A DNA stretch of 64,000 bases from Albugo candida (lineage: Eukaryota). The stretch covers positions 310,001 to 374,000 of the forward strand of contig JBDOQK010000011.1 in assembly GCA_040437565.1 (NCBI GenBank), written 5' to 3'. Below, piece by piece: positions 53,636-63,435 of the stretch. The notes beneath the pieces were generated by a model. That model was not told the origin of the DNA and did no database searches. It saw nothing but the letters and a program-made list of their open reading frames with translations. Both the position numbers and the translations under genes were made by a program. The stretch's first letter is position 1, and each line of letters begins with the position of its first letter.

Positions 53636-56561
53636 ATGCAAAATGCATTGTTTCTGCTCATTCAATTTATTCTATTCATTCTGATCCGCATTGATCCTGG
53701 AGATGGATTTTCAAAACAATCGGTAAATGCAGTTTCTGGTCAGAGTTCCAAAAGGTTGTGCGTACAGCGCTTACCAAAAACTTTGCAGCTGTTGAATACC
53801 GTACAAAAAGAGGCATTATGCAGTGCTACGGACACTGACAGCTCTGCTCGTTGTGTGGTCTCCGCTTCGAAACATAATAGCCTAAAGTTTCATTTGGAAC
53901 ATAGCGACACAATAATGCAAGATGTGGTGGTTAGTTTTCTTGTCCAATTNNNNNNNNNNNNNNNNNNNNNNNNNNNNNNNNNNNNNNNNNNNNNNNNNNN
54001 NNNNNNNNNNNNNNNNNNNNNNNNNNNNNNNNNNNNNNNNNNNNNNNNNTGCTATAGATATGCAAAATGCATTGTTTCTGCTCATTCAATTTATTCTATT
54101 CATTCTGATCCGCATCGATCCTGGAGATGGATTTCCAATGCAATCGGTAAACGCAGTTTCTGGTCAGAGCTTCAAAAGGTTGTGCGTACAGCGCATACCA
54201 AAAACTTTGCAGCTGTTGAATACCGTACAAAAAGAGGCATTATGCAGTGCTACGGACACTGACAGCTCTGCTCGTTGTGTGGTCTCCGCGTCAAAACATA
54301 ATAGCTTAAAGTTTTATTTGGAACATAGCGACACAATAATGCAAGATGTGGTGGTTAGTTTTCTTGTCCAATTATGTGCACATGCAAGTAGCAGCGGACC
54401 CGCGAAATGTCTGAATAAAATTCCAGCATATATTCTCTCAAAACCACAAACTACTCAATTGCTAAACGCACAGCTGAATTGGACAGGAAGTTTATGTGGG
54501 GGTGCAGTGGATGATAAACCTGCTGGCTGTATCGTGGAATTACATAGAATTTCCGGACAGAGGCTCATTTTTGGACGAGATTCTGGTATCCAACATCAAA
54601 AGAGCCAGCCAGCAAAAGCTCTCGGAATATGTCGAGCATTTGACGGGGAGTTGTCATTGTTTACAAAATGCGTAAAGTCAGCACCAAGAACCCTGGAGTT
54701 ATGGACACGTTTTGAATTGTGTCGAGAAGGCGCCGTGTACTCGGGCGTCATAGGCTGTGCATCCAAACTGGTGATAAAGGGTTTTCCTAATGCGTTTATC
54801 CCACAGATTTGTGCGTCAAGTTCGATGCAAACCTACAAACAGACCACAAGATGCATTCTTACAGCTCAGCAAAAGCTGGGATGGATGGAAGTCGCATTAC
54901 AGGCTAGATTATGCGCAAACGCCTTGCGTTTGAATCCTGTCGACTGCGCAATTGCTCTCAGAAAAGGACGAACAAATAAACTTGGAACGGGCTTTGGTGT
55001 TTCTGAGATTGTGGAAATTTGTATAGATGACACCGACTCAGCCCTAGTTTTGCATTGCATGGAACGAATGCATACAACCTCACTCAACGCAATCGAGCGA
55101 TTACGACTATGCAAAACAAATTCACACGTCAAAATGGAGTATTCATCTTACTGTATCATAAGCGCGCTGCAGATTCTTGATAAGGCTTTCCCCGAAGCTT
55201 TTCATCAAACACATGCGATTCAACTCTGCAGAGATGCGATATCCTTAGCCCCAGTTCAATGTATCAAGTATTTGATCAAAAGAAGATACCTGACGATTAC
55301 ACAGATTGCGACTTTATGCAATCAAGCGATGTCAGATCATCGAGAGAAATGCTACGAATTTATACACGGATTGGGGACGTTTACATCGGAACAAGGAATT
55401 AAATTCTGTGTTGGGGTGATTTCGGAAGGACCCACTGACTGTTTAAAAACCCACATGAAACTCACTAGTGCCAGCACATTCAACCAGTTTGGTTTATTAC
55501 TCTGCGAGAATGCCTCCAGTGAAGCTCCAGCGATATGCTTTGATGCTACCTCACCAAAATATTCAAAGATTGAAAAATGCGCTTTGTGTAATGGAGCTTC
55601 GAGTGTTGAGCCAGCCAAGTGTGCTTCAGTCACAATCACCAGAATCTCACAGGCCTATCAAGCGGCTCTTTGCAACAAAGCTTCGTCGATAGCACCAGCT
55701 TTATGTGCACTTGAGGCACCCTACAAACTCTTCTCAGAAGATACTGTAAAGCTATGTCGAGGTGCACAGGACATCATTCCTGCAAAATGTGCAATAATCC
55801 TTTCCACAAATTCTTTCGTATCGTCTTCGGTTGTCGTGCAGACCTGTCAGAACGTGACATCAACAACACCGGCCAAATGCCTTCTTTTCTCGGTGTCAAA
55901 GCGCACAGCGCTGTGCCCTCGAATGATATCTTACTGCCGTGAAGCATACAGCATACCGACATCTTTGGCAGTTATCAATGTCATTCATACGTGCGCAATC
56001 ATCTCTTCCGATTGCCCATTGACTTTCCTGGTACAAGCCTTTGATCAGTATGGAGATCTGGTTGGATCTTTAAACAGCGGAGTCGTACGCCTTTTCGTCG
56101 TAAGAAACACAAGCACATTACCAATTTTCGACATCAGAAACTCTATCGGACTCCAAGGTTACTCGCAAGCAAACTTTGTGAACGGAACAGCTAATTTTTC
56201 TGATTTCCGATTTAAGAAAGCCGGATCATTTACACTACATTTTCGGTCAAAAGAAGTGCGAAAAGGAAGTAAAGGGGAAGCTGTGATTCGAGTGAATGTG
56301 CACCCGAGTAAGCACCAAGCAGAAAGCACGCGCTGCCAAATCTGGCTTGCAAAAGCGCGTGGCTTTAATCACAGAATGGAACTAGGGGAAAATGGGCCTG
56401 GTCAAGAAGTTATGCTTCTCGCGCTTCCAGTCCACATGTACTTTCAAGTTTTGTATTGCGAGAAATACTTGTCCGAAAGTATGGGTCTTAAACACATAAC
56501 AAACACCTTTCGCTTTGCATTTTGTAAAGTCAATATGGCCGCGTACGATATCGTCACGTAA
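53636..56561 (+). CDS. Secreted Cys-rich repeat protein (LCxxAxSxxPAxC repeats) with a C-terminal Ig-like beta domain; 5' end present twice across an N-gap (second ATG at 54060)
   Basis: Hydrophobic N-terminus MQNALFLLIQFILFILIRIDPG; about 12 clear C-x10-C repeats; FLVQAFDQYGDLV...NGTANFSDFRFKKAGSFTLHF. Confidence 0.75.
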
Positions 56562-57038
56562 CACGAGAATACGACCGACTTGACTTCTCTATTATACGTC
56601 AACGATGGCAATGATGAAGAAAAAGCAAAGGGTTCATGAAATAATATCAACTGCAAGACCCATTGCAGGCAAAGTCCGACCTCACGTAATTGTTTGTTTG
56701 GTGGGATCAATCAGAGCTCGCTTCAATTGCGATCCAGGATGTCATCAGAAAGAGTTAATTTAGAGCTACTCTTTCATGTCATTGGAGAACGCAGCCACAG
56801 CATTTTGCGAAAAGAGGCATCAAAATATTCTTACTGATTACTAGTGCCTATGAGAAGCTCAATGCTGCTACTCAAGTGTAGCAGTATCCGGGGTGGACAT
56901 CACCTTTTCCAAGATACTTTTGTCTATCCGATAATATAGACGATTGATCGTAATCTTGTTACATTTATCTACCCGTCTCCTATTTTGGAAATCGACGACT
57001 GTGTCGGTTCGATCGCACGCGCTATATTTTTCGTTGCA

Positions 57039-60000
57039 ATGGAAACTATGTCCCCCGACCACATCAGCGAGATTATGGGAAGCCAGGAAGAAGCAGAAAG
57101 CTCACTCAACCCGAAACGCAAGCATCGATTACGGCAGTATGTAAAGGACCGAGCCGCATCTTGCTTCGAACTTGCGAGTGAAAGCAATCACTCAGTTTGG
57201 AAATCTCAAGACATAAAACAGCAAGTAATTGTATACAAACCAGTGAACGAATGGAATGGGTATCTTTCATCAAAGGCAGTTATCACTGCTAACGCCTCGT
57301 TTTCTCTCATTCCGAGAGTATTGGCCGAATTGAGCTCTACTACCAATTTCAAAACATTCCTTCGCAAGATTTTGGGCGACTATTTGATAGATGCACAGGT
57401 TTTAGAAGAACTGGAACAAGTAGCCGACATATCGCCTGAGGATGTTATCCACGCCGAGACTTCGGTTTTTGNNNNNNNNNNNNNNNNNNNNNNNNNNNNN
57501 NNNNNNNNNNNNNNNNNNNNNNNNNNNNNNNNNNNNNNNNNNNNNNNNNNNNNNNNNNNNNNNNNNNNNNNACTGCTAACGCCTCGTTTTCTCTCATTCC
57601 GAGAGTATTGGCCGAATTGAGCTCTACTACCAATTTCAAAACATTCCTTCGCAAGATTTTGGGCGACTATTTGATAGATGCACAGGTTTTAGAAGAACTG
57701 GAACAAGTAGCCGACATATCGCCTGAGGATGTTATCCACGCCGAGACTTCGGTTTTTGCAGAACAGGCAGCTATCAAGTGGTGGGCTATTAAATCATGTC
57801 AATTAGCTAGTAAGCCATCGGATTTCTACGTCTTAGAGGTATATGACAAGGTTTCGATTGGAAAGACGATTTTCTATATTACTTTCGCTAGTACATCGGG
57901 GCTGAAGTGGATCAACACGAGATAAAGTCGTGCTATATGTATCAGGAATCTCTAGCACAAGTTGGCGATATGCCTACAACAGAAGCACTGAACTTGGAAA
58001 GAGCCAAGATAAATGCGTTGATATGCAAATTTGAACGTCTACCGATAGCGGATTTTACACAAGAATTGGTACAGATTTCAGTCATTTGTCAGCGCCGTTC
58101 CCCGTTAGTAGCGTTTTTTCGGAGCAACACTGCAGCTGAAATGGCCACACAGTTCGCAATCGGTCTCAAAGATTTGCTGGAGGATCCAATTGAGGCACAA
58201 GAAATAGCGATTATGAGCTCCACAGATTGGATCAAAGATAAGTAGGAAAATTCTTTCCAAGATCGCACAAATTGACTGTCCTCATCTTATTCTGTTTTCA
58301 TGCATGACCTAGAGAGCGGTCTAGCTGTGTCATTTGTTTGCGCAAGTACTCGGCCATCTTCCGGCGGCGACATCATTGTCGCACTTGCGGCGAAGTTATC
58401 TGTTCGCAATGCAGTAGTACTATTCGGGTTCCGGGAAAGAAACTTAAATGCAGCGAGAATCAGCCCACAGGTTACAAAACAAGTATTCGATTGTGCATAC
58501 ACTGCGTTGGATTATATTCACAGCACAAGGGAATAATGAGCTACTCGGGTCAGCAAGTTCTGAGTGATCTTGTTCATCAACAAAGAAAGGAGTCATTGTC
58601 CCCTTACGAAGAGGAGAAAAATGAACAACAGGTGTTGGATCAGAACTTGCAGCATGGTAGTAAGGCTACTGCCGACGATACAGAAATCAGTCAAATTGTA
58701 CTGCTCGAACGACCTTCGCGTAATTACAATGACGCAGAAGGCGACATTTTGTTACAGCATTCTGGGGATTCGGAATCGTACGGTTCTGATGAACATCTTC
58801 CATTATGGCTACATAGCGGGGAATTATCGCAGACTTCCAATTATACCTCCGAATCTTCGATTTCCGAGCATTTGCTTCTTTCCATGACTATGGACGATGA
58901 GAAGAAGAATTCGTGTTTATATAATTCAGATGCGGATTCTATGATAACGTTAGATTCCGGTCCGCCTTCGTGCTCATTATCATCAAAGACGAGAAGAAGC
59001 AAAGCGTATAGTTTTAATGCATGCAATCAAAAGCAAGTGAGCACTATAGCACAGACCGAAGATTCTCCACTGAGACATCGTACAAATTCTACTCTGGACA
59101 AGGAGATACATTTCATACGCTCGCAACATGGTCGCGAAGCATCTGCCTCATTTTCATTTCAATGTTCCACGAAACCTACGCGAAAGACCGTACATCGTTT
59201 AGTGCAAGAGTGTACTAATGTCTGTACGGCTTCTGCTTGGTCAAGCCACCGAGACGAAAAGTGCGCTTTGAAAGAAGCATACGATAAACTTTTACTCAAG
59301 CTCGAAGGAACAGCGCATTTTCTTGTCGTAGGGTTTACCACTGGATTTTGCGCTGAGTTGTTGATCACATCCTTACGAGAGCAAGCTCCCAATGTGCCAT
59401 ATATCGGTGGCTCCATTGCTTGCGGCTTGTGCGATGAAAATTCGTGGATTTCTGTGAATCGTCAAAAGGATGAAGAATTTCTAACACTTTGGGGCGTCCA
59501 TGACCCATACGGCATCTACTCTGTCGCTCATGCCGATTATTCACAGAGCGATCCAAAGGAAAAAGCTTACGCAGCTGCACGAGCCGCATACGGCCGAGTT
59601 GAAAAGGATATACAACCAGATGAGGCTCCGGTATGTAGCTGAAGATCCTACACACTATCGCCATGAGTTTACCTCGCAAAGTCTTTCATCGTAGCATATG
59701 CATGCCCCCAAAGCGTCGAAGACGCAACTGAAGGAATTCGTGAAGCCATTTGCTGCCCTCTTGTGGGTGGCTGCTCGTCAGATGTAGCCAAACAGGGCGA
59801 TCTACGTGGCCATCATATTTCATCCACACAAATTAGCAGTAGTAGTTGCTGTGATTATACTAAGAATGTTCATGAACTTCGGGGTGACAAAACCAGTCTC
59901 GGTATAGCATTCGCGCTATGCTTCCCCAGTGTGGAAACACGGACAAGTTGGTTCACTGGATACCAACCCTTTCATAGACCGGAAAGCACACATTGTACCG

Positions 60001-60742
60001 GGACAGTCACGAAAGCTTCGTGCAAGAAAATATATGAAATTGACTCAAAACCAGCTGCCCAAGTCTACCAAGAGGTTAGTGCCCTCCACTGTCCTCTCGT
60101 AATCTAATTTTCTTATCTGTATGCGCTATTGGATAAATCGAACAGTGGATTGACATTGCAGTGAAATCCAATCCTTCAGGAGATTCAGAGACCAAATTTC
60201 CACGGCTTGGGAATTTGTATCCGCTTGGTACCAGCCTAGAATTTGATAATGGAGAGGATGCCGAAATTCTTTATAACATGACTGCAGTTATCATTTCTTT
60301 GGATCCCGAGGAAGGCTCGCTGATCACCACAAGCTCTTTGACTCCAGGAACTAGCGTTACGCTTATGGAAATGACTGAAGAATCGCTTGAGGCTTCCATT
60401 CGCCAATTGCGGCAGCGTGTCTTGAAGAGCGGCGATTTGGATGGGAATGATATCGACGGATCCTTAGTATTTGTATCATCAGGGGTCCATGCACTTCTTG
60501 GCCACCACAAGATCAACAAAATGGTACGGTCATAGAATCCCCCTACATATGCAAGTGATGAAAATTGTCTGTAGGTTGACGCTTATCGCAAAGAATTCAA
60601 AGGAGCAGCGTTGATGGGAATGACTACCTCCGGTGGGATCGGACACCTTGTGGACGTGAATGATTTCCCACATTTTGATTCGCTTATGTTTGGTGCTATT
60701 TTTTTCACTGGACGAAGGAGAACAGAGTACATGTTCTTGTAG
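57039..60742 (+). CDS. START-like + FYVE + FIST_N/FIST_C fusion protein; multi-exon, spans an overlap gap
   Basis: N-terminal oomycete START-like region (AAIKWWAIK...SDFYVLE); FYVE WIKD...CHLCLRKYSAIFRRRHHCRTCGEVICSQC...RLCIHC; FIST-like VPYIGGSIACG, CPLVGGCSSD, GYQP...GTVTKASCKKIYEIDSKPAAQVYQE, YPLG, PGTSVTLME, LMGMTTSGGIG; stop TAG at 60740-60742. Confidence 0.8.
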
Positions 60743-60831
60743 CAAAATGTACATAAATACTAATAAATAAATGCTAACAAATAACGGTACTAGTGGTGTG
60801 CTCTGCTTCTGGAATAGCTATAGACCGTCAA

Positions 60832-63435
60832 ATGTTTTTGCGCCGCAAACGTGAGGAGGTCCACGCTCGACAATCATCCAGCGGGTCGATTGAACTACCC
60901 GACTACATTACTTCAGCTGATAATCATCATGATCTTGCACTGCTGCAGCGAGAATTCGGTATAAAGCCGATACAAGATTCGGATGTGCAAGCAGAGTTGG
61001 ACCTTTTGATTGCCGATAATGTAGAGTCGATGGAATACGAGAATAATGTGATGTGTCCAGCGAATAGAGAAGGTGAATTGGAAGATATACTATGGCAAAG
61101 TATGAGAGAAGAGAATGAAGATGACATGGCTCAAGACGCGTTGAATGCTGATGATGAACGGCAATACGGTGAAAGTCACGAACGAGTTGATGAGAGCTTG
61201 GAATCGGACTTGGACCTTGTCGAAGAAGTGACAGATGAGGATATGCTTGATCCAGAATTTCTGACTCAGCTCGAAGCATTCGGCCATCGAGAAAATGGAA
61301 GAATCAATAAAGACGAGCAAAATTATCAGATTGATTTACTTATGCAAAAAATAAAGGACATGAAAGTCAAATCTGTTACGCTGAAGAGGCAAAACAATAT
61401 TGCAGAAGCACTGCAGGCATTTCGGGAGCTGAAGGTATTCGAGGAGAAACTTGCGCTATTGAAAGAGGGCGCAATTTCAAGCGTTATAGATGTGAACATT
61501 GCACAGGGAAAGTATACTGCTACGCATCCTCCTTCTCGACATAGAGTGAAAATAAGGGACTCAACTTGTCAAGTCAACAATGCACCTCAGACAAATACTC
61601 GTAGAATGGGTGAAAGTGTTGATGACTTTCAGAATCGCACTACCGAAATAGTCTCGGGTGTCGATGATGAAGAATTTAAAAGCAATGACTCAAAAGGGTG
61701 CAACAAAGCCAGACATGTGCCTCAGATCAGGAAGGAGAAAAGTCTTGAAGCTTACAGCCAAGAACGGCCCATTTTAGATGAAGATATTGAACGACGCCTA
61801 GAAGATGCAAAAAGAGAAGCCATCCGGCTGAAGCGGGAAAATGACATTCAAGGAGCTGTCAAAGTCATGCGACAGATCAAGGATTTGGAGTCTCGTCTAA
61901 ACCTGGAAGAATATCTAGATAGAACGAACAGCGGTGATAAAACCAAGCATGCCGAAATACCAAATGTACCAGTTGTCAAAGCCGACTGCGACTCTGATAA
62001 TGAATATTCTCAATTGGAACGGTTGTTAGTGAAGTTTGCAAACGACGCAATGCTGCAATCCGCAAAGTGGTTACCAATCAATCGCTTTCATGCTGCGTAC
62101 TGGGTAAAACAGGTGGAGATTTTTCATTTTGCTTGACTCGCTTTCTCACCCGATTCTCGTACGTAGCGCAAACGCTACGTAGATGATTTGGAGAATCTTC
62201 GAACGAGGCTGCATAAAGCTCATACTCAAGATCCACCACGTTTTGCGATACAGCATCATAGTGAGGACGTTGAGAGAGTTTTGTCAAATGTATCACAAGA
62301 TGAGATCAGAGTAGAAATTCGATCGCTGCATCAGCTATGTCAGCTAGCTGGAAAGGAAGTGTTTGTAAAATTCTGTTTGAATGTCCCGTCGTCGAATCCA
62401 ATCGAAGGCAAAACGAGCAATTTCCACGTCCCGGCCACTCCTCCATATGCATGCAAATCATTTCCTTCCAAAATGTATTCCCAATTTGCGTTTCCAATTA
62501 AACGAAATCGCGGATTGCAACGATTATTCGACCTGAAGAAAGCCACTTTCGAAGTCTGGCGTCCCAGCACAATATTCAGGTCCTCTCAAATGGTAGCACG
62601 TGCATACTTGACATTGGTAAAGTTTTTTGTACTCCAATCGGTACTATTGTGAAGTATCTCATGAATTCAATTGAAGAGTCCTCTCAATACTCAGTGTGAA
62701 ATACACTGCGAGATTCCATTTGTCAATCCAAATCGGCGACCCACAGGTGGGGATATTGAGGTACGTCTCCATTCGATACAGAAAAAGCTTGACATCCTCA
62801 CGTTCTTCCTTGGCAATTTAGGTCGTAATTCAGCTCCGAACTCCTCTTCGTGTGAAAGAAATAAGAAAAAGCACATACGAAACGCTCACCGTGGAGAATG
62901 TACCGGCCAAGTCTTCTATCCTGTCTTCAATCATACCTCAACCAGCTGAGATGCAGAACAAAGGGAGCGAAGCCATAGCCGACGTACTCGATGATCCTTT
63001 TGATCCTCACAGTGTCGACCTGATAGTCAGTTATGATGTTATCATCGAAGAGGTAGCGATTGTTCGACTTGTATCACCGTAACTGAATGCTCTTATAGAT
63101 GAAAAAGATCAACGAAAATCTGGGGGATCAACGAGCTGAGAGATCGGATTTGAAGGACCGCATCGATTCCTTAAGTTTAAAAAAGCAGGTCGGACTTGCT
63201 TTATGAATATCGTAGCCGTACTACTTTGCTTTTGTAGCTTCTGGAAATTAGTATGGAATCAGGTCGCTTGACATTGAAGCAATACTTGGAGCAACTTCGA
63301 AGCAGAATCGACTCCGACTACGTAATATTCAAGAAACTTCAGCAGCAGAATCGATTTGTTGACGCTGAATGCGTAATGCGACGAATTCGCATAATGAAAG
63401 AGGAGATGAAAGTTGATCCTAACGAGCTTTCCTGA
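60832..63435 (+). CDS. CC2D1A/B / Lethal giant discs-like protein (DM14 repeats + C2 domain); multi-exon
   Basis: DM14-like KVKSVTLKRQNNIAEALQAFRELK and AKREAIRLKRENDIQGAVKVMRQIK; C2 region FAFPIKRNRGLQRLF..KKATFEVW...PTGGDIEV.IQLRTPL; C-terminal helical tail. Confidence 0.75.

What the first reader, a model, noticed from the sequence alone, without database searches (positions are those of the whole stretch)
57039..60742. FYVE finger fused to a FIST sensory domain: a putative endosome-anchored small-molecule or NO sensor
Seen: a START-like region, a canonical FYVE (WIKD, RRHHCRTCG, RLC), a low-complexity linker and a complete FIST_N+FIST_C module in one spliced gene. Known: FYVE binds PI3P on endosomes. 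FIST domains are mostly prokaryotic sensory modules, proposed to bind small ligands; the NosP subgroup binds haem and NO. Oomycetes are known for novel FYVE fusions such as FYVE-GAF. The FIST_C 'SCxxR' and 'GE' positions are altered here (SSGV, GG). Inference: a largely uncharacterised lipid- and ligand-sensing module, perhaps with a bacterially derived FIST domain.
Basis: partly seen in the sequence, partly recalled or inferred. Interest (0 to 1): 0.75.

Follow-up and report, generated by a model that had tools for sequence, protein, structure and literature searches.

The report
Oomycete START–FYVE–FIST gene, family already described
This is one expressed oomycete gene that joins a lipid-binding START fold, a PI3P-binding FYVE finger and a strongly diverged FIST module; its Phytophthora sojae relative PsFYVE1 is already published, so it is a new member of a known family, not a new kind of sensor.

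Summary
Window 57039-60742 (+) is one six-exon gene. Two RNA-like run assemblies remove the predicted introns on single contigs spanning FYVE and FIST: all five in one, the first four in the other, which ends in exon 5. The protein (about 1,040 aa) has an N-terminal START fold, a canonical FYVE finger, a Ser-rich linker of about 240 aa, and a complete FIST_N+FIST_C module. A 100-N gap with identical 187-bp flanks inside exon 1 is an assembly artefact.

- FYVE+FIST_N+FIST_C is in print as P. sojae PsFYVE1. It binds PI3P in vitro and is claimed to be a secreted effector.
- The family is pan-oomycete, including Saprolegniales.
- The window protein has no signal-peptide-like N-terminus.
- The FIST module does not nest among bacterial NosP-like proteins. 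It groups with protist FIST proteins.
- All 10 oomycete rows have lost 17 positions conserved elsewhere in the family, including two His and two Cys. That weakens a haem/NO-sensor reading.

Best reading: a cytosolic, PI3P-docked START lipid-binding protein whose diverged FIST acts as a protein-binding or regulatory module.

The START domain is not mentioned in the PsFYVE1 preprint.

Novelty: new member of a known kind. Interest is modest.

The parts
56959..57038 (+). 5' untranslated leader (minimum extent)
   Evidence: The spliced contigs of X18 and X19 begin at 56959 and 56993. An in-frame stop lies just upstream of ORF start 56940, and the first ATG is at 57039.
57039..57284 (+). Exon 1, first part (82 codons): hydrophilic N-terminus and the start of the START fold
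   Evidence: The maximum 9-residue Kyte-Doolittle mean in the first 45 aa is 0.04, so there is no signal-peptide-like core.
57285..57571 (.). Assembly artefact: one extra 187-bp copy (57285-57471, identical to 57572-57758) plus 100 N (57472-57571)
   Evidence: The two copies are 187 of 187 identical and the gap is 100 N. All 4 of 4 runs laid, two of them DNA, join 57284 to 57572 and skip 287 nt.
57572..57838 (+). Exon 1, second part (89 codons): START fold
57839..57891 (+). Intron 1 (53 nt, GT..AG)
   Evidence: Removed in the X18 and X19 contigs and kept in DNA runs. Splice sites.
57892..58241 (+). Exon 2: second half of the START fold, ending in the FYVE WIKD motif (58228-58239)
   Evidence: The fold is assigned from the model of ortholog P0059, to which the window exons are 36-52% identical.
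58242..58312 (+). Intron 2 (71 nt, GT..AG, phase 2)
   Evidence: removed in X18 and X19.
58313..59630 (+). Exon 3: FYVE finger (to about 58505), Ser-rich linker (about 58506-59225) and the first half of FIST_N (59226-59630)
   Evidence: Pfam FYVE 3.2e-11 at residues 3-66 of the exon. Motifs. The linker is 234 aa with S as the commonest residue (38). It aligns poorly among orthologs.
59631..59681 (+). Intron 3 (51 nt, GT..AG)
59682..60074 (+). Exon 4: second half of FIST_N; the FIST_N/FIST_C boundary lies at about 60050
   Evidence: Pfam FIST 0.0031 at profile positions 100-189 of 189. Bacterial-only profile, domain 1. Boundary taken from ortholog P0003.
60075..60145 (+). Intron 4 (71 nt, GT..AG)
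60146..60523 (+). Exon 5: FIST_C, first part, holding FVSSGVH in place of the family's YCxGC
   Evidence: Pfam FIST_C 2.5e-4.
60524..60574 (+). Intron 5 (51 nt, GT..AG)
   Evidence: Removed in the X18 contig. The X19 contig ends before it.
60575..60742 (+). Exon 6: end of FIST_C (TTSGGIG in place of the family's FTFGEQG) and stop TAG at 60740-60742

Best explanation
One transcribed six-exon gene encodes a cytosolic multidomain protein of about 1,040 aa, ordered START fold, FYVE finger, disordered Ser-rich linker, FIST_N+FIST_C. It is this organism's member of a pan-oomycete family whose P. sojae member is very probably PsFYVE1.

Proposed working:
1. The FYVE finger docks the protein on PI3P-bearing endosomal or autophagic membranes. 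This is shown in vitro for PsFYVE1 and inferred here from the intact WIKD, RRHHCR and RLC motifs and the four CxxC pairs.
2. The START fold holds or moves a hydrophobic ligand at that membrane. This is inferred from the fold only, by analogy with CERT and STARD3, where a START domain is tied to a membrane-targeting part.
3. The FIST module has lost 17 residues conserved elsewhere in the family. It more likely acts as a protein-binding or regulatory output than as a haem/NO or small-ligand sensor. This is inferred, and it fits the report that PsFYVE1's FIST domains are needed for a protein interaction.

The ancestral role is a housekeeping one inside the oomycete cell, not host manipulation.
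For: Gene and transcript.

Domains: FYVE; FIST; START fold.

Family conservation:
- 27 hits of 770-2195 aa, of which 23 carry all three Pfam domains, in Phytophthora, Peronospora, Plasmopara, Pythium and Globisporangium.
- FYVE+FIST also occurs in the Saprolegniales Aphanomyces stellatus and Achlya hypogyna.

No secretion signal: the window's N-terminus is hydrophilic, as are those of the Pythium orthologs and the Globisporangium ortholog.

START and FIST stay together where FYVE decays. P0111 keeps only a partial variant FYVE. P0219 has no Pfam FYVE hit. Both keep the START-homologous N-terminus and FIST.

Membrane association looks like a theme of this protist FIST group. By a crude hydropathy scan, 6 of the 9 non-oomycete rows have 3-7 TM-like segments before FIST, and Rozella has a 7tm_3 hit.

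FIST divergence; the stem branch is 2.06.

PI3P binding and the FIST dependence of a protein interaction in PsFYVE1: preprint passages.
Against: - No localisation, lipid-binding or ligand data exist for this protein.
- The START assignment rests on a model of a Phytophthora ortholog, not of the window protein. Pfam's START profile finds nothing.
[quoted passage not shown] Loss of conserved residues therefore does not prove loss of ligand binding.
- The only experiments on the family argue for a secreted effector that acts in plant nuclei.
- Orthology to Ps136834 was not tested directly, because no call returned its sequence.
- The full-length AlphaFold2 model failed (pLDDT 30.2), so domain contacts are unknown.
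Confidence: 0.55

Rival explanations
1. Endosome-anchored small-molecule, haem or NO sensor: FYVE anchors the protein and FIST binds a ligand as bacterial NosP does.
For: - The FIST_N+FIST_C module is complete in length.
- The closest prokaryotic relatives are stand-alone FIST proteins. They are followed co-directionally by GGDEF-EAL genes in 9 of 10 loci looked at and by a histidine kinase in 1 of 10. That is a NosP-like sensory context.
- NosP proteins sense NO through a FIST-bound haem (PMC12570481, passages).
Against: - 17 positions conserved in bacteria and other protists are replaced in all 10 oomycete rows. They include both conserved His and both conserved Cys.
- The window additionally changes the GE glutamate to Gly.
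- No kinase or cyclase output domain is present.
- The residues that bind haem in NosP are not known from anything I read, so this is suggestive only.
Confidence: 0.15
2. Secreted host-targeting effector, as published for PsFYVE1: the protein leaves the pathogen, enters plant cells and disturbs RZ-1A-dependent splicing.
For: The preprint reports, for PsFYVE1:
- a 24-aa signal peptide that works in a yeast invertase trap;
- reduced virulence on silencing;
- FIST-dependent binding to plant RZ-1A.

The runs that hold this gene include plant metagenomes.
Against: - The preprint itself says only the P. sojae protein has the signal peptide.
- The window's N-terminus is hydrophilic.
- The family occurs in Achlya hypogyna and Aphanomyces stellatus (Saprolegniales, not known to me as plant pathogens; recalled), in Pythium oligandrum (a mycoparasite) and in P. 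insidiosum (an animal pathogen) (names; lifestyles recalled).
- Phytophthora and downy-mildew orthologs carry a lineage-specific Ala/Val-rich N-terminal extension (9-residue hydropathy up to 1.97). This could be what is scored as a signal peptide. That is my inference; I did not see the P. sojae sequence.
Confidence: 0.12
3. Gene-model artefact: the FYVE and FIST parts are two neighbouring genes, or the internal repeat is a real duplication.
For: - An N gap and a duplicated 187-bp block sit inside exon 1.
- Several public models of orthologs are fused with, or named after, a DEAD-box helicase.
Against: - Single spliced contigs in two RNA-like runs span START to FIST.
- 23 of 27 orthologous models carry FYVE, FIST and FIST_C together.
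- The duplicate is absent from 4 of 4 runs laid, two of them DNA.
- No helicase match lies in the window.
Confidence: 0.02

Closest known systems
PsFYVE1 (Ps136834) of Phytophthora sojae (Lu et al.; preprint 10.1101/2021.12.02.470886; journal version cited in PMC10381902 as Plant Physiol 191:925, not held here)
   Same: - One classic FYVE followed by FIST_N and FIST_C.
- 'Highly conserved in other oomycetes'.
- The FYVE motif set used there for PI3P binding (WxxD, R(R/K)HHCR, R(V/I)C) is present in the window as WIKD, RRHHCR and RLC.
   Different: - The window protein has no signal-peptide-like N-terminus.
- The preprint's text does not contain the word START (0 occurrences). Here the roughly 250 aa before FYVE are shown to be a START fold.
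- The window has Gly where other members of the family have the GE glutamate.
Bacterial NosP and related stand-alone 'FIST signal transduction proteins'
   Same: - FIST_N+FIST_C over the full length: 136.5 bits against a profile built only from FIST-only proteins of the family shown to be bacterial.
- Shared motifs such as PxxGG and IDxxPAAxVY.
   Different: - The bacterial proteins are about 400 aa, stand alone, and sit beside GGDEF-EAL or histidine-kinase genes.
- The window's module is the C-terminal part of a fusion.
- The window keeps 38 of 66 conserved positions and lacks the CxGC cysteines and both conserved histidines.
- Whether the ~400-aa family sampled here includes experimentally studied NosP proteins was not tested.
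START-FYVE proteins PITG_07422/07423 of the Phytophthora mating-type cluster (bioRxiv 10.64898/2026.04.23.720443; passages read)
   Same: - An N-terminal START domain is followed by a FYVE-type finger.
- Database matches to START are weak and structure models were needed there too.
   Different: - Those proteins are described as START plus FYVE only, with no FIST in the text, and as restricted to Peronosporales.
- The family here adds FIST and reaches Saprolegniales.
- Homology between the two START-FYVE sets was not tested.
CERT and STARD3/MLN64 (START lipid-transfer proteins with a membrane-targeting part)
   Same: - START fold: CERT, MLN64, StAR and STARD4 are among the top Foldseek hits, with target-normalised TM-scores of 0.56-0.74 among the START rows.
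- A START domain is combined with a module that selects an organelle membrane.
   Different: - Targeting here is by FYVE/PI3P, not by a PH domain/PI4P or the MENTAL domain (the roles of those parts are recalled, not tested).
- Sequence identity is 10-17%.
- An added FIST module has no counterpart.
FBXO22 (animal F-box protein with a FIST domain; recalled from Borziak and Zhulin 2007 and later work, not read here)
   Same: A eukaryotic protein in which FIST is fused to a non-sensory partner and is thought to bind proteins.
   Different: No sequence link was detectable. Profiles of the oomycete family (A1) and of the FIST-only family (A6) found no FIST-bearing chain in the PDB sequence set at E up to 1 and 10. 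I did not verify that FBXO22 chains are in that set.

Membership tests
FYVE zinc finger, PI3P-binding type (PF01363) | Pfam profile above the gathering score | tested here: met
   43.6 bits against 27.8, E 3.2e-11, on the exon 3 translation.
FYVE zinc finger, PI3P-binding type (PF01363) | The WxxD, R(R/K)HHCR and R(V/I)C motifs, as defined in the PsFYVE1 preprint | tested here: met
   WIKD and RRHHCR match exactly. The third motif is RLC (Leu for Val/Ile), a conservative variant; the orthologs have RVC.
FYVE zinc finger, PI3P-binding type (PF01363) | Eight zinc-binding cysteines as four CxxC pairs | tested here: met
   CVIC, CRTC, CSQC and CIHC.
FYVE zinc finger, PI3P-binding type (PF01363) | Binding to PI3P | not testable with these tools
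   Reported for PsFYVE1 on lipid blots, together with PI5P binding. Not tested for this protein.
FIST (PF08495) plus FIST_C (PF10442) | Pfam profiles above the gathering score on the window's own sequence | tested here: not met
   As separate exons: FIST 12.6 and 17.8 bits (cut-off 23.2); FIST_C 21.6 bits (cut-off 28.5). The module is split over four exons, and the spliced protein could not be handed to the Pfam tool.
FIST (PF08495) plus FIST_C (PF10442) | Full-length match to an independent family profile | tested here: met
   A profile of 20 bacterial-side proteins, run against the exons joined with X, scores 136.5 bits over positions 2-396 of 397. 200 shuffles score at most 2.2 bits. Orthologs pass Pfam cut-offs for FIST in 6 of 6 and for FIST_C in 5 of 6.
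NosP-type NO/haem sensor | A stand-alone FIST protein encoded beside a histidine kinase or a c-di-GMP enzyme | tested here: not met
   Here FIST is the C-terminal part of a START-FYVE fusion in a eukaryotic gene. The bacterial relatives do have that context, in 10 of 10 loci looked at.
NosP-type NO/haem sensor | Family-conserved residues retained | tested here: not met
   The window keeps 38 of 66. Seventeen are lost in all 10 oomycete rows, including H287, H394, C349 and C352. Which residues bind haem is not known to me.
NosP-type NO/haem sensor | Haem and NO binding | not testable with these tools
   Needs spectroscopy on purified protein.
START domain (PF01852; helix-grip fold) | Pfam profile match | tested here: not met
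   No START hit at E up to 1 on the window exons or at E up to 0.1 on six orthologs.
START domain (PF01852; helix-grip fold) | Helix-grip topology, with nearest solved structures being START domains | tested here: met
   The model of ortholog P0059 has the order helix, 3 strands, 2 helices, 6 strands (a short 4-residue helix follows the first of these), long helix. The first 38 of the 39 Foldseek rows shown (ranks 1-46) are START domains, E 4.5e-10 to 3.3e-7. The Atlas's nearest clusters are named 'START domain-containing protein' (score 0.93, a lead only). The window exons are 36-52% identical to P0059.
PsFYVE1 orthologous group | FYVE+FIST_N+FIST_C architecture, and a single family in Peronosporales | tested here: met
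   Architecture. The full-length Peronosporales and Pythiales proteins fall into one 50% cluster, represented by P0007; three further rows (P0031, P0093, P0037) are partial models of the same family.
PsFYVE1 orthologous group | N-terminal signal peptide | tested here: not met
   Hydrophilic N-terminus by hydropathy scan; no signal-peptide predictor was available. The preprint says only the P. sojae protein has one.
PsFYVE1 orthologous group | Direct sequence orthology to Ps136834 | not tested
   No call returned the P. sojae sequence. The preprint's supplements are closed and the journal version is not held.

The most novel reading that the evidence does not exclude
The pan-oomycete START-FYVE-FIST protein is a PI3P-docked lipid (sterol or terpenoid) transfer or sensing device. 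In it, a FIST module inherited from membrane-tethered protist FIST proteins has lost its ancestral ligand site and become a protein-binding output. The published 'effector' PsFYVE1 would then be this housekeeping protein, and its 'signal peptide' would be a lineage-specific Ala-rich N-terminal extension placed before an unrecognised START domain.
Probability: 0.3. Interest if true: 0.6.

Novelty: new member of a known kind. Interest (0 to 1): 0.33.

Why it matters
The fusion flagged as novel is already in the literature, so the main value here is correction and context.

1. The family has a third, unreported domain, a START fold. That turns 'FYVE-FIST' into a lipid-binding protein docked on PI3P membranes.
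2. The family is pan-oomycete and lacks a signal peptide outside P. sojae. This bears on whether PsFYVE1 should be read as a dedicated effector.
3. The oomycete FIST is a strongly diverged form of a protist FIST group that is mostly tethered to multi-pass membrane proteins. This gives a concrete residue set to test for what FIST domains do in eukaryotes.

START-FYVE proteins have just been linked to Phytophthora mating-hormone biology. An older, universal START-FYVE relative is therefore a useful comparison.

Tried and rejected
- **Full-length AlphaFold2 model.** P0003 with 14 orthologs gave mean pLDDT 30.2 and was unusable.
- **PDB sequence searches.** The family profile A1 found only FYVE chains. 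The FIST-only profile A6 found nothing meaningful (best E 0.27). No solved FIST relative is detectable by sequence.
- **Whole-genome search of the window's assembly.** No genome is held. FIST copy number in this organism is unknown.
- **Careful IQ-TREE search.** It did not finish in three runs (667 s of search). Only the quick PMSF tree and the FastTree tree are reported. Both have long eukaryotic branches, so long-branch attraction cannot be excluded.
- **First fragment alignments.** A2 misplaced one window fragment and A3 included FYVE; both were replaced by A4. A4 still holds about 250 linker columns and the tail of FYVE from P0029 and P0030. That let two non-FIST rows into the top 150: P0180 (FYVE only) and P0130 (no Pfam hit).
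- **RNA evidence.** No listed holder is on record as RNA. X18 and X19 are labelled 'RNA?' by guess. I count them as RNA because their contigs lack exactly the five introns that the DNA runs keep. The X18 contig runs on into the next gene, so it does not by itself define the 3' end.
- **NosP reference sequence.** The 14 control genomes gave FIST_C hits only in Synechococcus elongatus and Methanocaldococcus jannaschii. Membership of studied NosP proteins in the sampled bacterial family stays untested.
- **Journal version of the PsFYVE1 paper.** PMC9922423 is not held, and preprint supplements are closed. The length, the N-terminus and Fig. 1E (orthologs) of PsFYVE1 were not seen and could bear on orthology and on the signal-peptide remark.
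- **Synteny with a DEAD-box helicase.** The names of some orthologs suggest it, but no helicase match lies in the window.
- **Earlier findings of this scan.** None were found.
- **Neighbouring ORFs.** 54096-56558, 60778-62133 and 62167-62649 have no Pfam hit.
Full report
**Observation.** The + strand between 57039 and 60742 holds six open exon-sized frames. Reading the sequence gives this model:
- ATG at 57039.
- Exon ends at 57838, 58241, 59630, 60074 and 60523.
- Five GT..AG introns of 53, 71, 51, 71 and 51 nt.
- TAG at 60740-60742.

None of the seven translated pieces has a stop, and they align end to end with 13 full-length orthologs.

Exon 1 is interrupted by 100 N (57472-57571). The 187 bases before the gap are identical to the 187 bases after it (187 of 187). 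The orthologs show no such repeat.

**Transcript and assembly evidence.** Contigs of four public runs were laid on 56900-60900.
- All four join 57284 directly to 57572. Two of them are DNA. The gap plus one repeat copy is therefore an artefact of this assembly.
- Two runs labelled 'RNA?' by guess carry single contigs in which exactly the predicted introns are missing. X18 has a 12,113-nt contig from 56959 to beyond 60900 with all five removed. X19 has a 2,960-nt contig covering 56993-60485 with the first four removed.
- The DNA runs X1 and X4 keep the introns.

The gene is thus transcribed and spliced as modelled, and the FYVE and FIST parts lie on one spliced molecule. One caveat applies: these are assembled contigs, and the X18 contig runs on into the next gene, so the transcript ends are not defined.

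**Domains.**
- *FYVE.* Pfam gives 3.2e-11, above its cut-off, on exon 3. WIKD, RRHHCR, RLC and four CxxC pairs are present.
- *FIST.* Exon by exon, the window's pieces score below Pfam's cut-offs, because the module is split over four exons. Three results settle it:
  1. Six full-length orthologs score FYVE 7e-17 to 1.4e-13 and FIST 3e-12 to 2.4e-10. FIST_C scores 1.2e-11 to 7.8e-11 in five of the six; the sixth is truncated.
  2. The window is about 52% identical to the P. infestans ortholog over the FIST region.
  3. A profile built only from 20 FIST-only proteins of about 400 aa, of the family later shown to be bacterial (three named), matches the exons read through with X at each junction. 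It scores 136.5 bits over positions 2-396 of 397, against at most 2.2 bits for 200 shuffles.
- *N-terminal region.* It has no Pfam hit. The Atlas gave 'START domain-containing protein' clusters as nearest neighbours (score 0.93, a lead only). An AlphaFold2 model of the 341-aa N-terminal ortholog fragment P0059, built from a 35-row alignment that includes Saprolegniales and the window exons, reached pLDDT 73.7 and pTM 0.71 with a helix-grip order of elements. Of the 39 Foldseek rows shown, the first 38 (ranks 1-46) are solved START domains, among them silkworm carotenoid-binding protein, CERT, StAR, STARD4, MLN64 and PCTP. E-values run from 4.5e-10 to 3.3e-7.
- *Linker.* It is 234 aa, Ser-rich and poorly conserved.

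**What is known.** A full-text search for FIST, FYVE and oomycete found two papers. [quoted passage not shown] According to the passages and section 5 that I read:
- the protein binds PI3P (and PI5P) on lipid blots, and PI3P binding is lost when four FYVE residues are mutated;
- both FIST domains are required for binding plant RZ-1A;
- it is 'highly conserved in other oomycetes';

The journal version is cited in PMC10381902 but is not held. The word START does not occur in the preprint.

A 2026 preprint calls START plus FYVE 'a combination not reported previously' in two other Phytophthora proteins, which are linked to mating type (passages).

In summary, the FYVE-FIST fusion is in print and START-FYVE is newly in print for other proteins. 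The three-part START-FYVE-FIST reading of this family did not turn up in my searches.

**Distribution.**
- The first search gave 27 proteins of 770-2195 aa. Of these, 23 carry organism names, all of them oomycetes, and 23 carry all three Pfam domains.
- A FIST profile was run against 1.84 billion representatives. It gave 2,202 hits at E up to 0.001 and 392 at E up to 1e-30.
- Among the best 150, FYVE with FIST and FIST_C occurs only in oomycetes. These are the Peronosporales/Pythiales cluster, Aphanomyces stellatus (1,011 aa) and two Achlya hypogyna proteins (957 and 831 aa).
- A further A. stellatus protein (756 aa) keeps the START-homologous N-terminus and FIST, but its FYVE has decayed. One Achlya paralogue has only a partial variant FYVE.
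- START and FIST therefore stay together even where the PI3P finger degenerates.

**Origin of the FIST module.** The ~400-aa FIST-only family is bacterial.
- At least 544 stretches in species-representative genomes encode a relative. The 80 kept come from Pseudomonadota, Myxococcota and other phyla.
- In 9 of 10 loci looked at, the next co-directional gene encodes GGDEF-EAL; in 1 of 10 it encodes a histidine kinase.
- This is the context described for NosP-type sensors.

In a FastTree tree of 151 rows and a quick IQ-TREE (LG+C20 PMSF) tree of 67 rows:
- All oomycete FIST modules form one clade (support 100) on a long stem (1.05 and 2.06).
- All 29 named bacterial rows, with 19 unnamed rows, lie on one side of a branch (SH-like 98 and SH-aLRT 97).
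- The oomycetes lie on the other side together with Cafeteria roenbergensis, Polykrikos kofoidii, Pelomyxa schiedti (FIST+TIR), Rozella allomycis (7tm_3+FIST) and five unnamed long proteins.

The careful search did not finish, and long branches may attract one another. Within these limits there is no sign of a recent transfer from bacteria into oomycetes. An ancient bacterial origin of the whole protist group remains open.

By a crude hydropathy scan, 6 of the 9 non-oomycete eukaryote-side rows have three to seven TM-like segments ahead of FIST. The Atlas points to 7TM-like families for the Cafeteria N-terminus (scores 0.81-0.86, a lead only). In this protist group FIST is thus typically tethered to a membrane. 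Oomycetes achieve the same through START-FYVE.

**Divergence of the oomycete FIST.** There are 66 alignment positions conserved in at least 90% of the 48 bacterial-side rows.
- The window keeps 38 of them.
- The other oomycete rows keep 34-43.
- The other eukaryote rows keep 51-60; one truncated row keeps 41.

Seventeen positions are replaced in all 10 oomycete rows although at least 7 of 9 other eukaryote rows keep them. In P0048 numbering they are G135, E137, G149, S158, A160, F196, R229, H287, P288, F300, R322, C349, C352, Q385, H394, G395 and N396.

The 'GE' glutamate is kept in the 6 other main-lineage oomycete rows, is Gln in the three Saprolegniales paralogue rows, and is Gly only in the window.

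Which FIST residues bind haem or any other ligand is not known from what I read. The loss of both conserved His and both conserved Cys argues against a NosP-like haem site but does not prove it.

**Mechanism.** Status of each step:
- *Shown here:* one spliced transcript; an intact FYVE motif set; a complete but diverged FIST; a START fold in an ortholog.
- *Shown elsewhere, for the P. sojae protein:* PI3P binding in vitro, and FIST-dependent protein binding.
- *Inferred:* the protein is cytosolic and docks on PI3P membranes through FYVE; the START domain holds or moves a lipid there; FIST serves as a protein-binding or regulatory module.

The secreted-effector reading fits poorly as the family's ancestral role. 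The window protein and the Pythium and Globisporangium orthologs have hydrophilic N-termini. Phytophthora and downy-mildew orthologs carry an extra Ala/Val-rich extension (9-residue hydropathy up to 1.97) that might be scored as a signal peptide. That last point is my inference, since I did not see the P. sojae sequence.

**Verdict.** The gene is a new member of a known kind, with two additions worth recording: an unreported START domain, and a residue-level picture of how far the oomycete FIST has moved from the rest of the family.

Noticed in passing
window 57285-57758: A 100-N scaffold gap is flanked by identical 187-bp copies inside a coding exon. Independent DNA and RNA-like assemblies have a single copy, so gene callers on this assembly will mis-model the gene's 5' part.
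   Followed up: yes
window 53916-56561 (+): A long open frame (881 codons, with another N run near its start) encodes a Cys-rich protein with a recurring 'LC...A...P..C'-like spacing. Pfam finds nothing. RNA-like contigs end at 56929-56967, just upstream of the START-FYVE-FIST gene.
   Followed up: partly
window 60778-62136 and 62167-62652 (+): The downstream frames encode an acidic, Glu/Asp/Lys-rich protein with no Pfam hit. An X19 contig begins at 60779, only 37 nt after the FIST gene's stop, so the intergenic space is very short.
   Followed up: partly
Orthologs P0015, P0023, P0035, P0059, P0096, P0111: Public records name these proteins 'DEAD/DEAH box RNA helicase' or 'ddx46'. Pfam finds no helicase domain in the three that I scanned (P0015, P0096, P0111). 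The name probably spread from fused gene models such as P0018 (1,676 aa, with PF00270). No helicase lies beside the gene in this window.
   Followed up: partly
Loci L005, L007, L011, L015, L021, L027, L044, L049, L059, L061: Bacterial stand-alone FIST genes are followed within a few bases, on the same strand, by a GGDEF-EAL gene (9 of 10 loci) or a histidine-kinase gene (1 of 10). This is a tight, widespread two-gene unit.
   Followed up: partly
P0216 (Rozella allomycis), P0228 (Pelomyxa schiedti), P0199 (Cafeteria roenbergensis), P0215, P0140: Other eukaryotic FIST fusions turned up: 7tm_3-type receptor plus FIST, FIST plus TIR, and multi-pass membrane N-termini plus FIST. I met no description of these in the papers read.
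   Followed up: partly
window 57059-59840: About 30 single-base differences from the window were listed, 21 of them shared by all four runs laid. The window's strain therefore differs by roughly 0.5-0.8% from the strains in those runs. X4 also carries second, diverged short contigs over 58084-58209 and 58937-59046, including a 3-nt deletion at 58991 in the linker.
   Followed up: no
P0086 (112 aa, ENA metagenome): A metagenome protein fragment is nearly identical to the window's exon 2 translation, with a few substitutions. A close relative of this organism is therefore present in public metagenomes.
   Followed up: no
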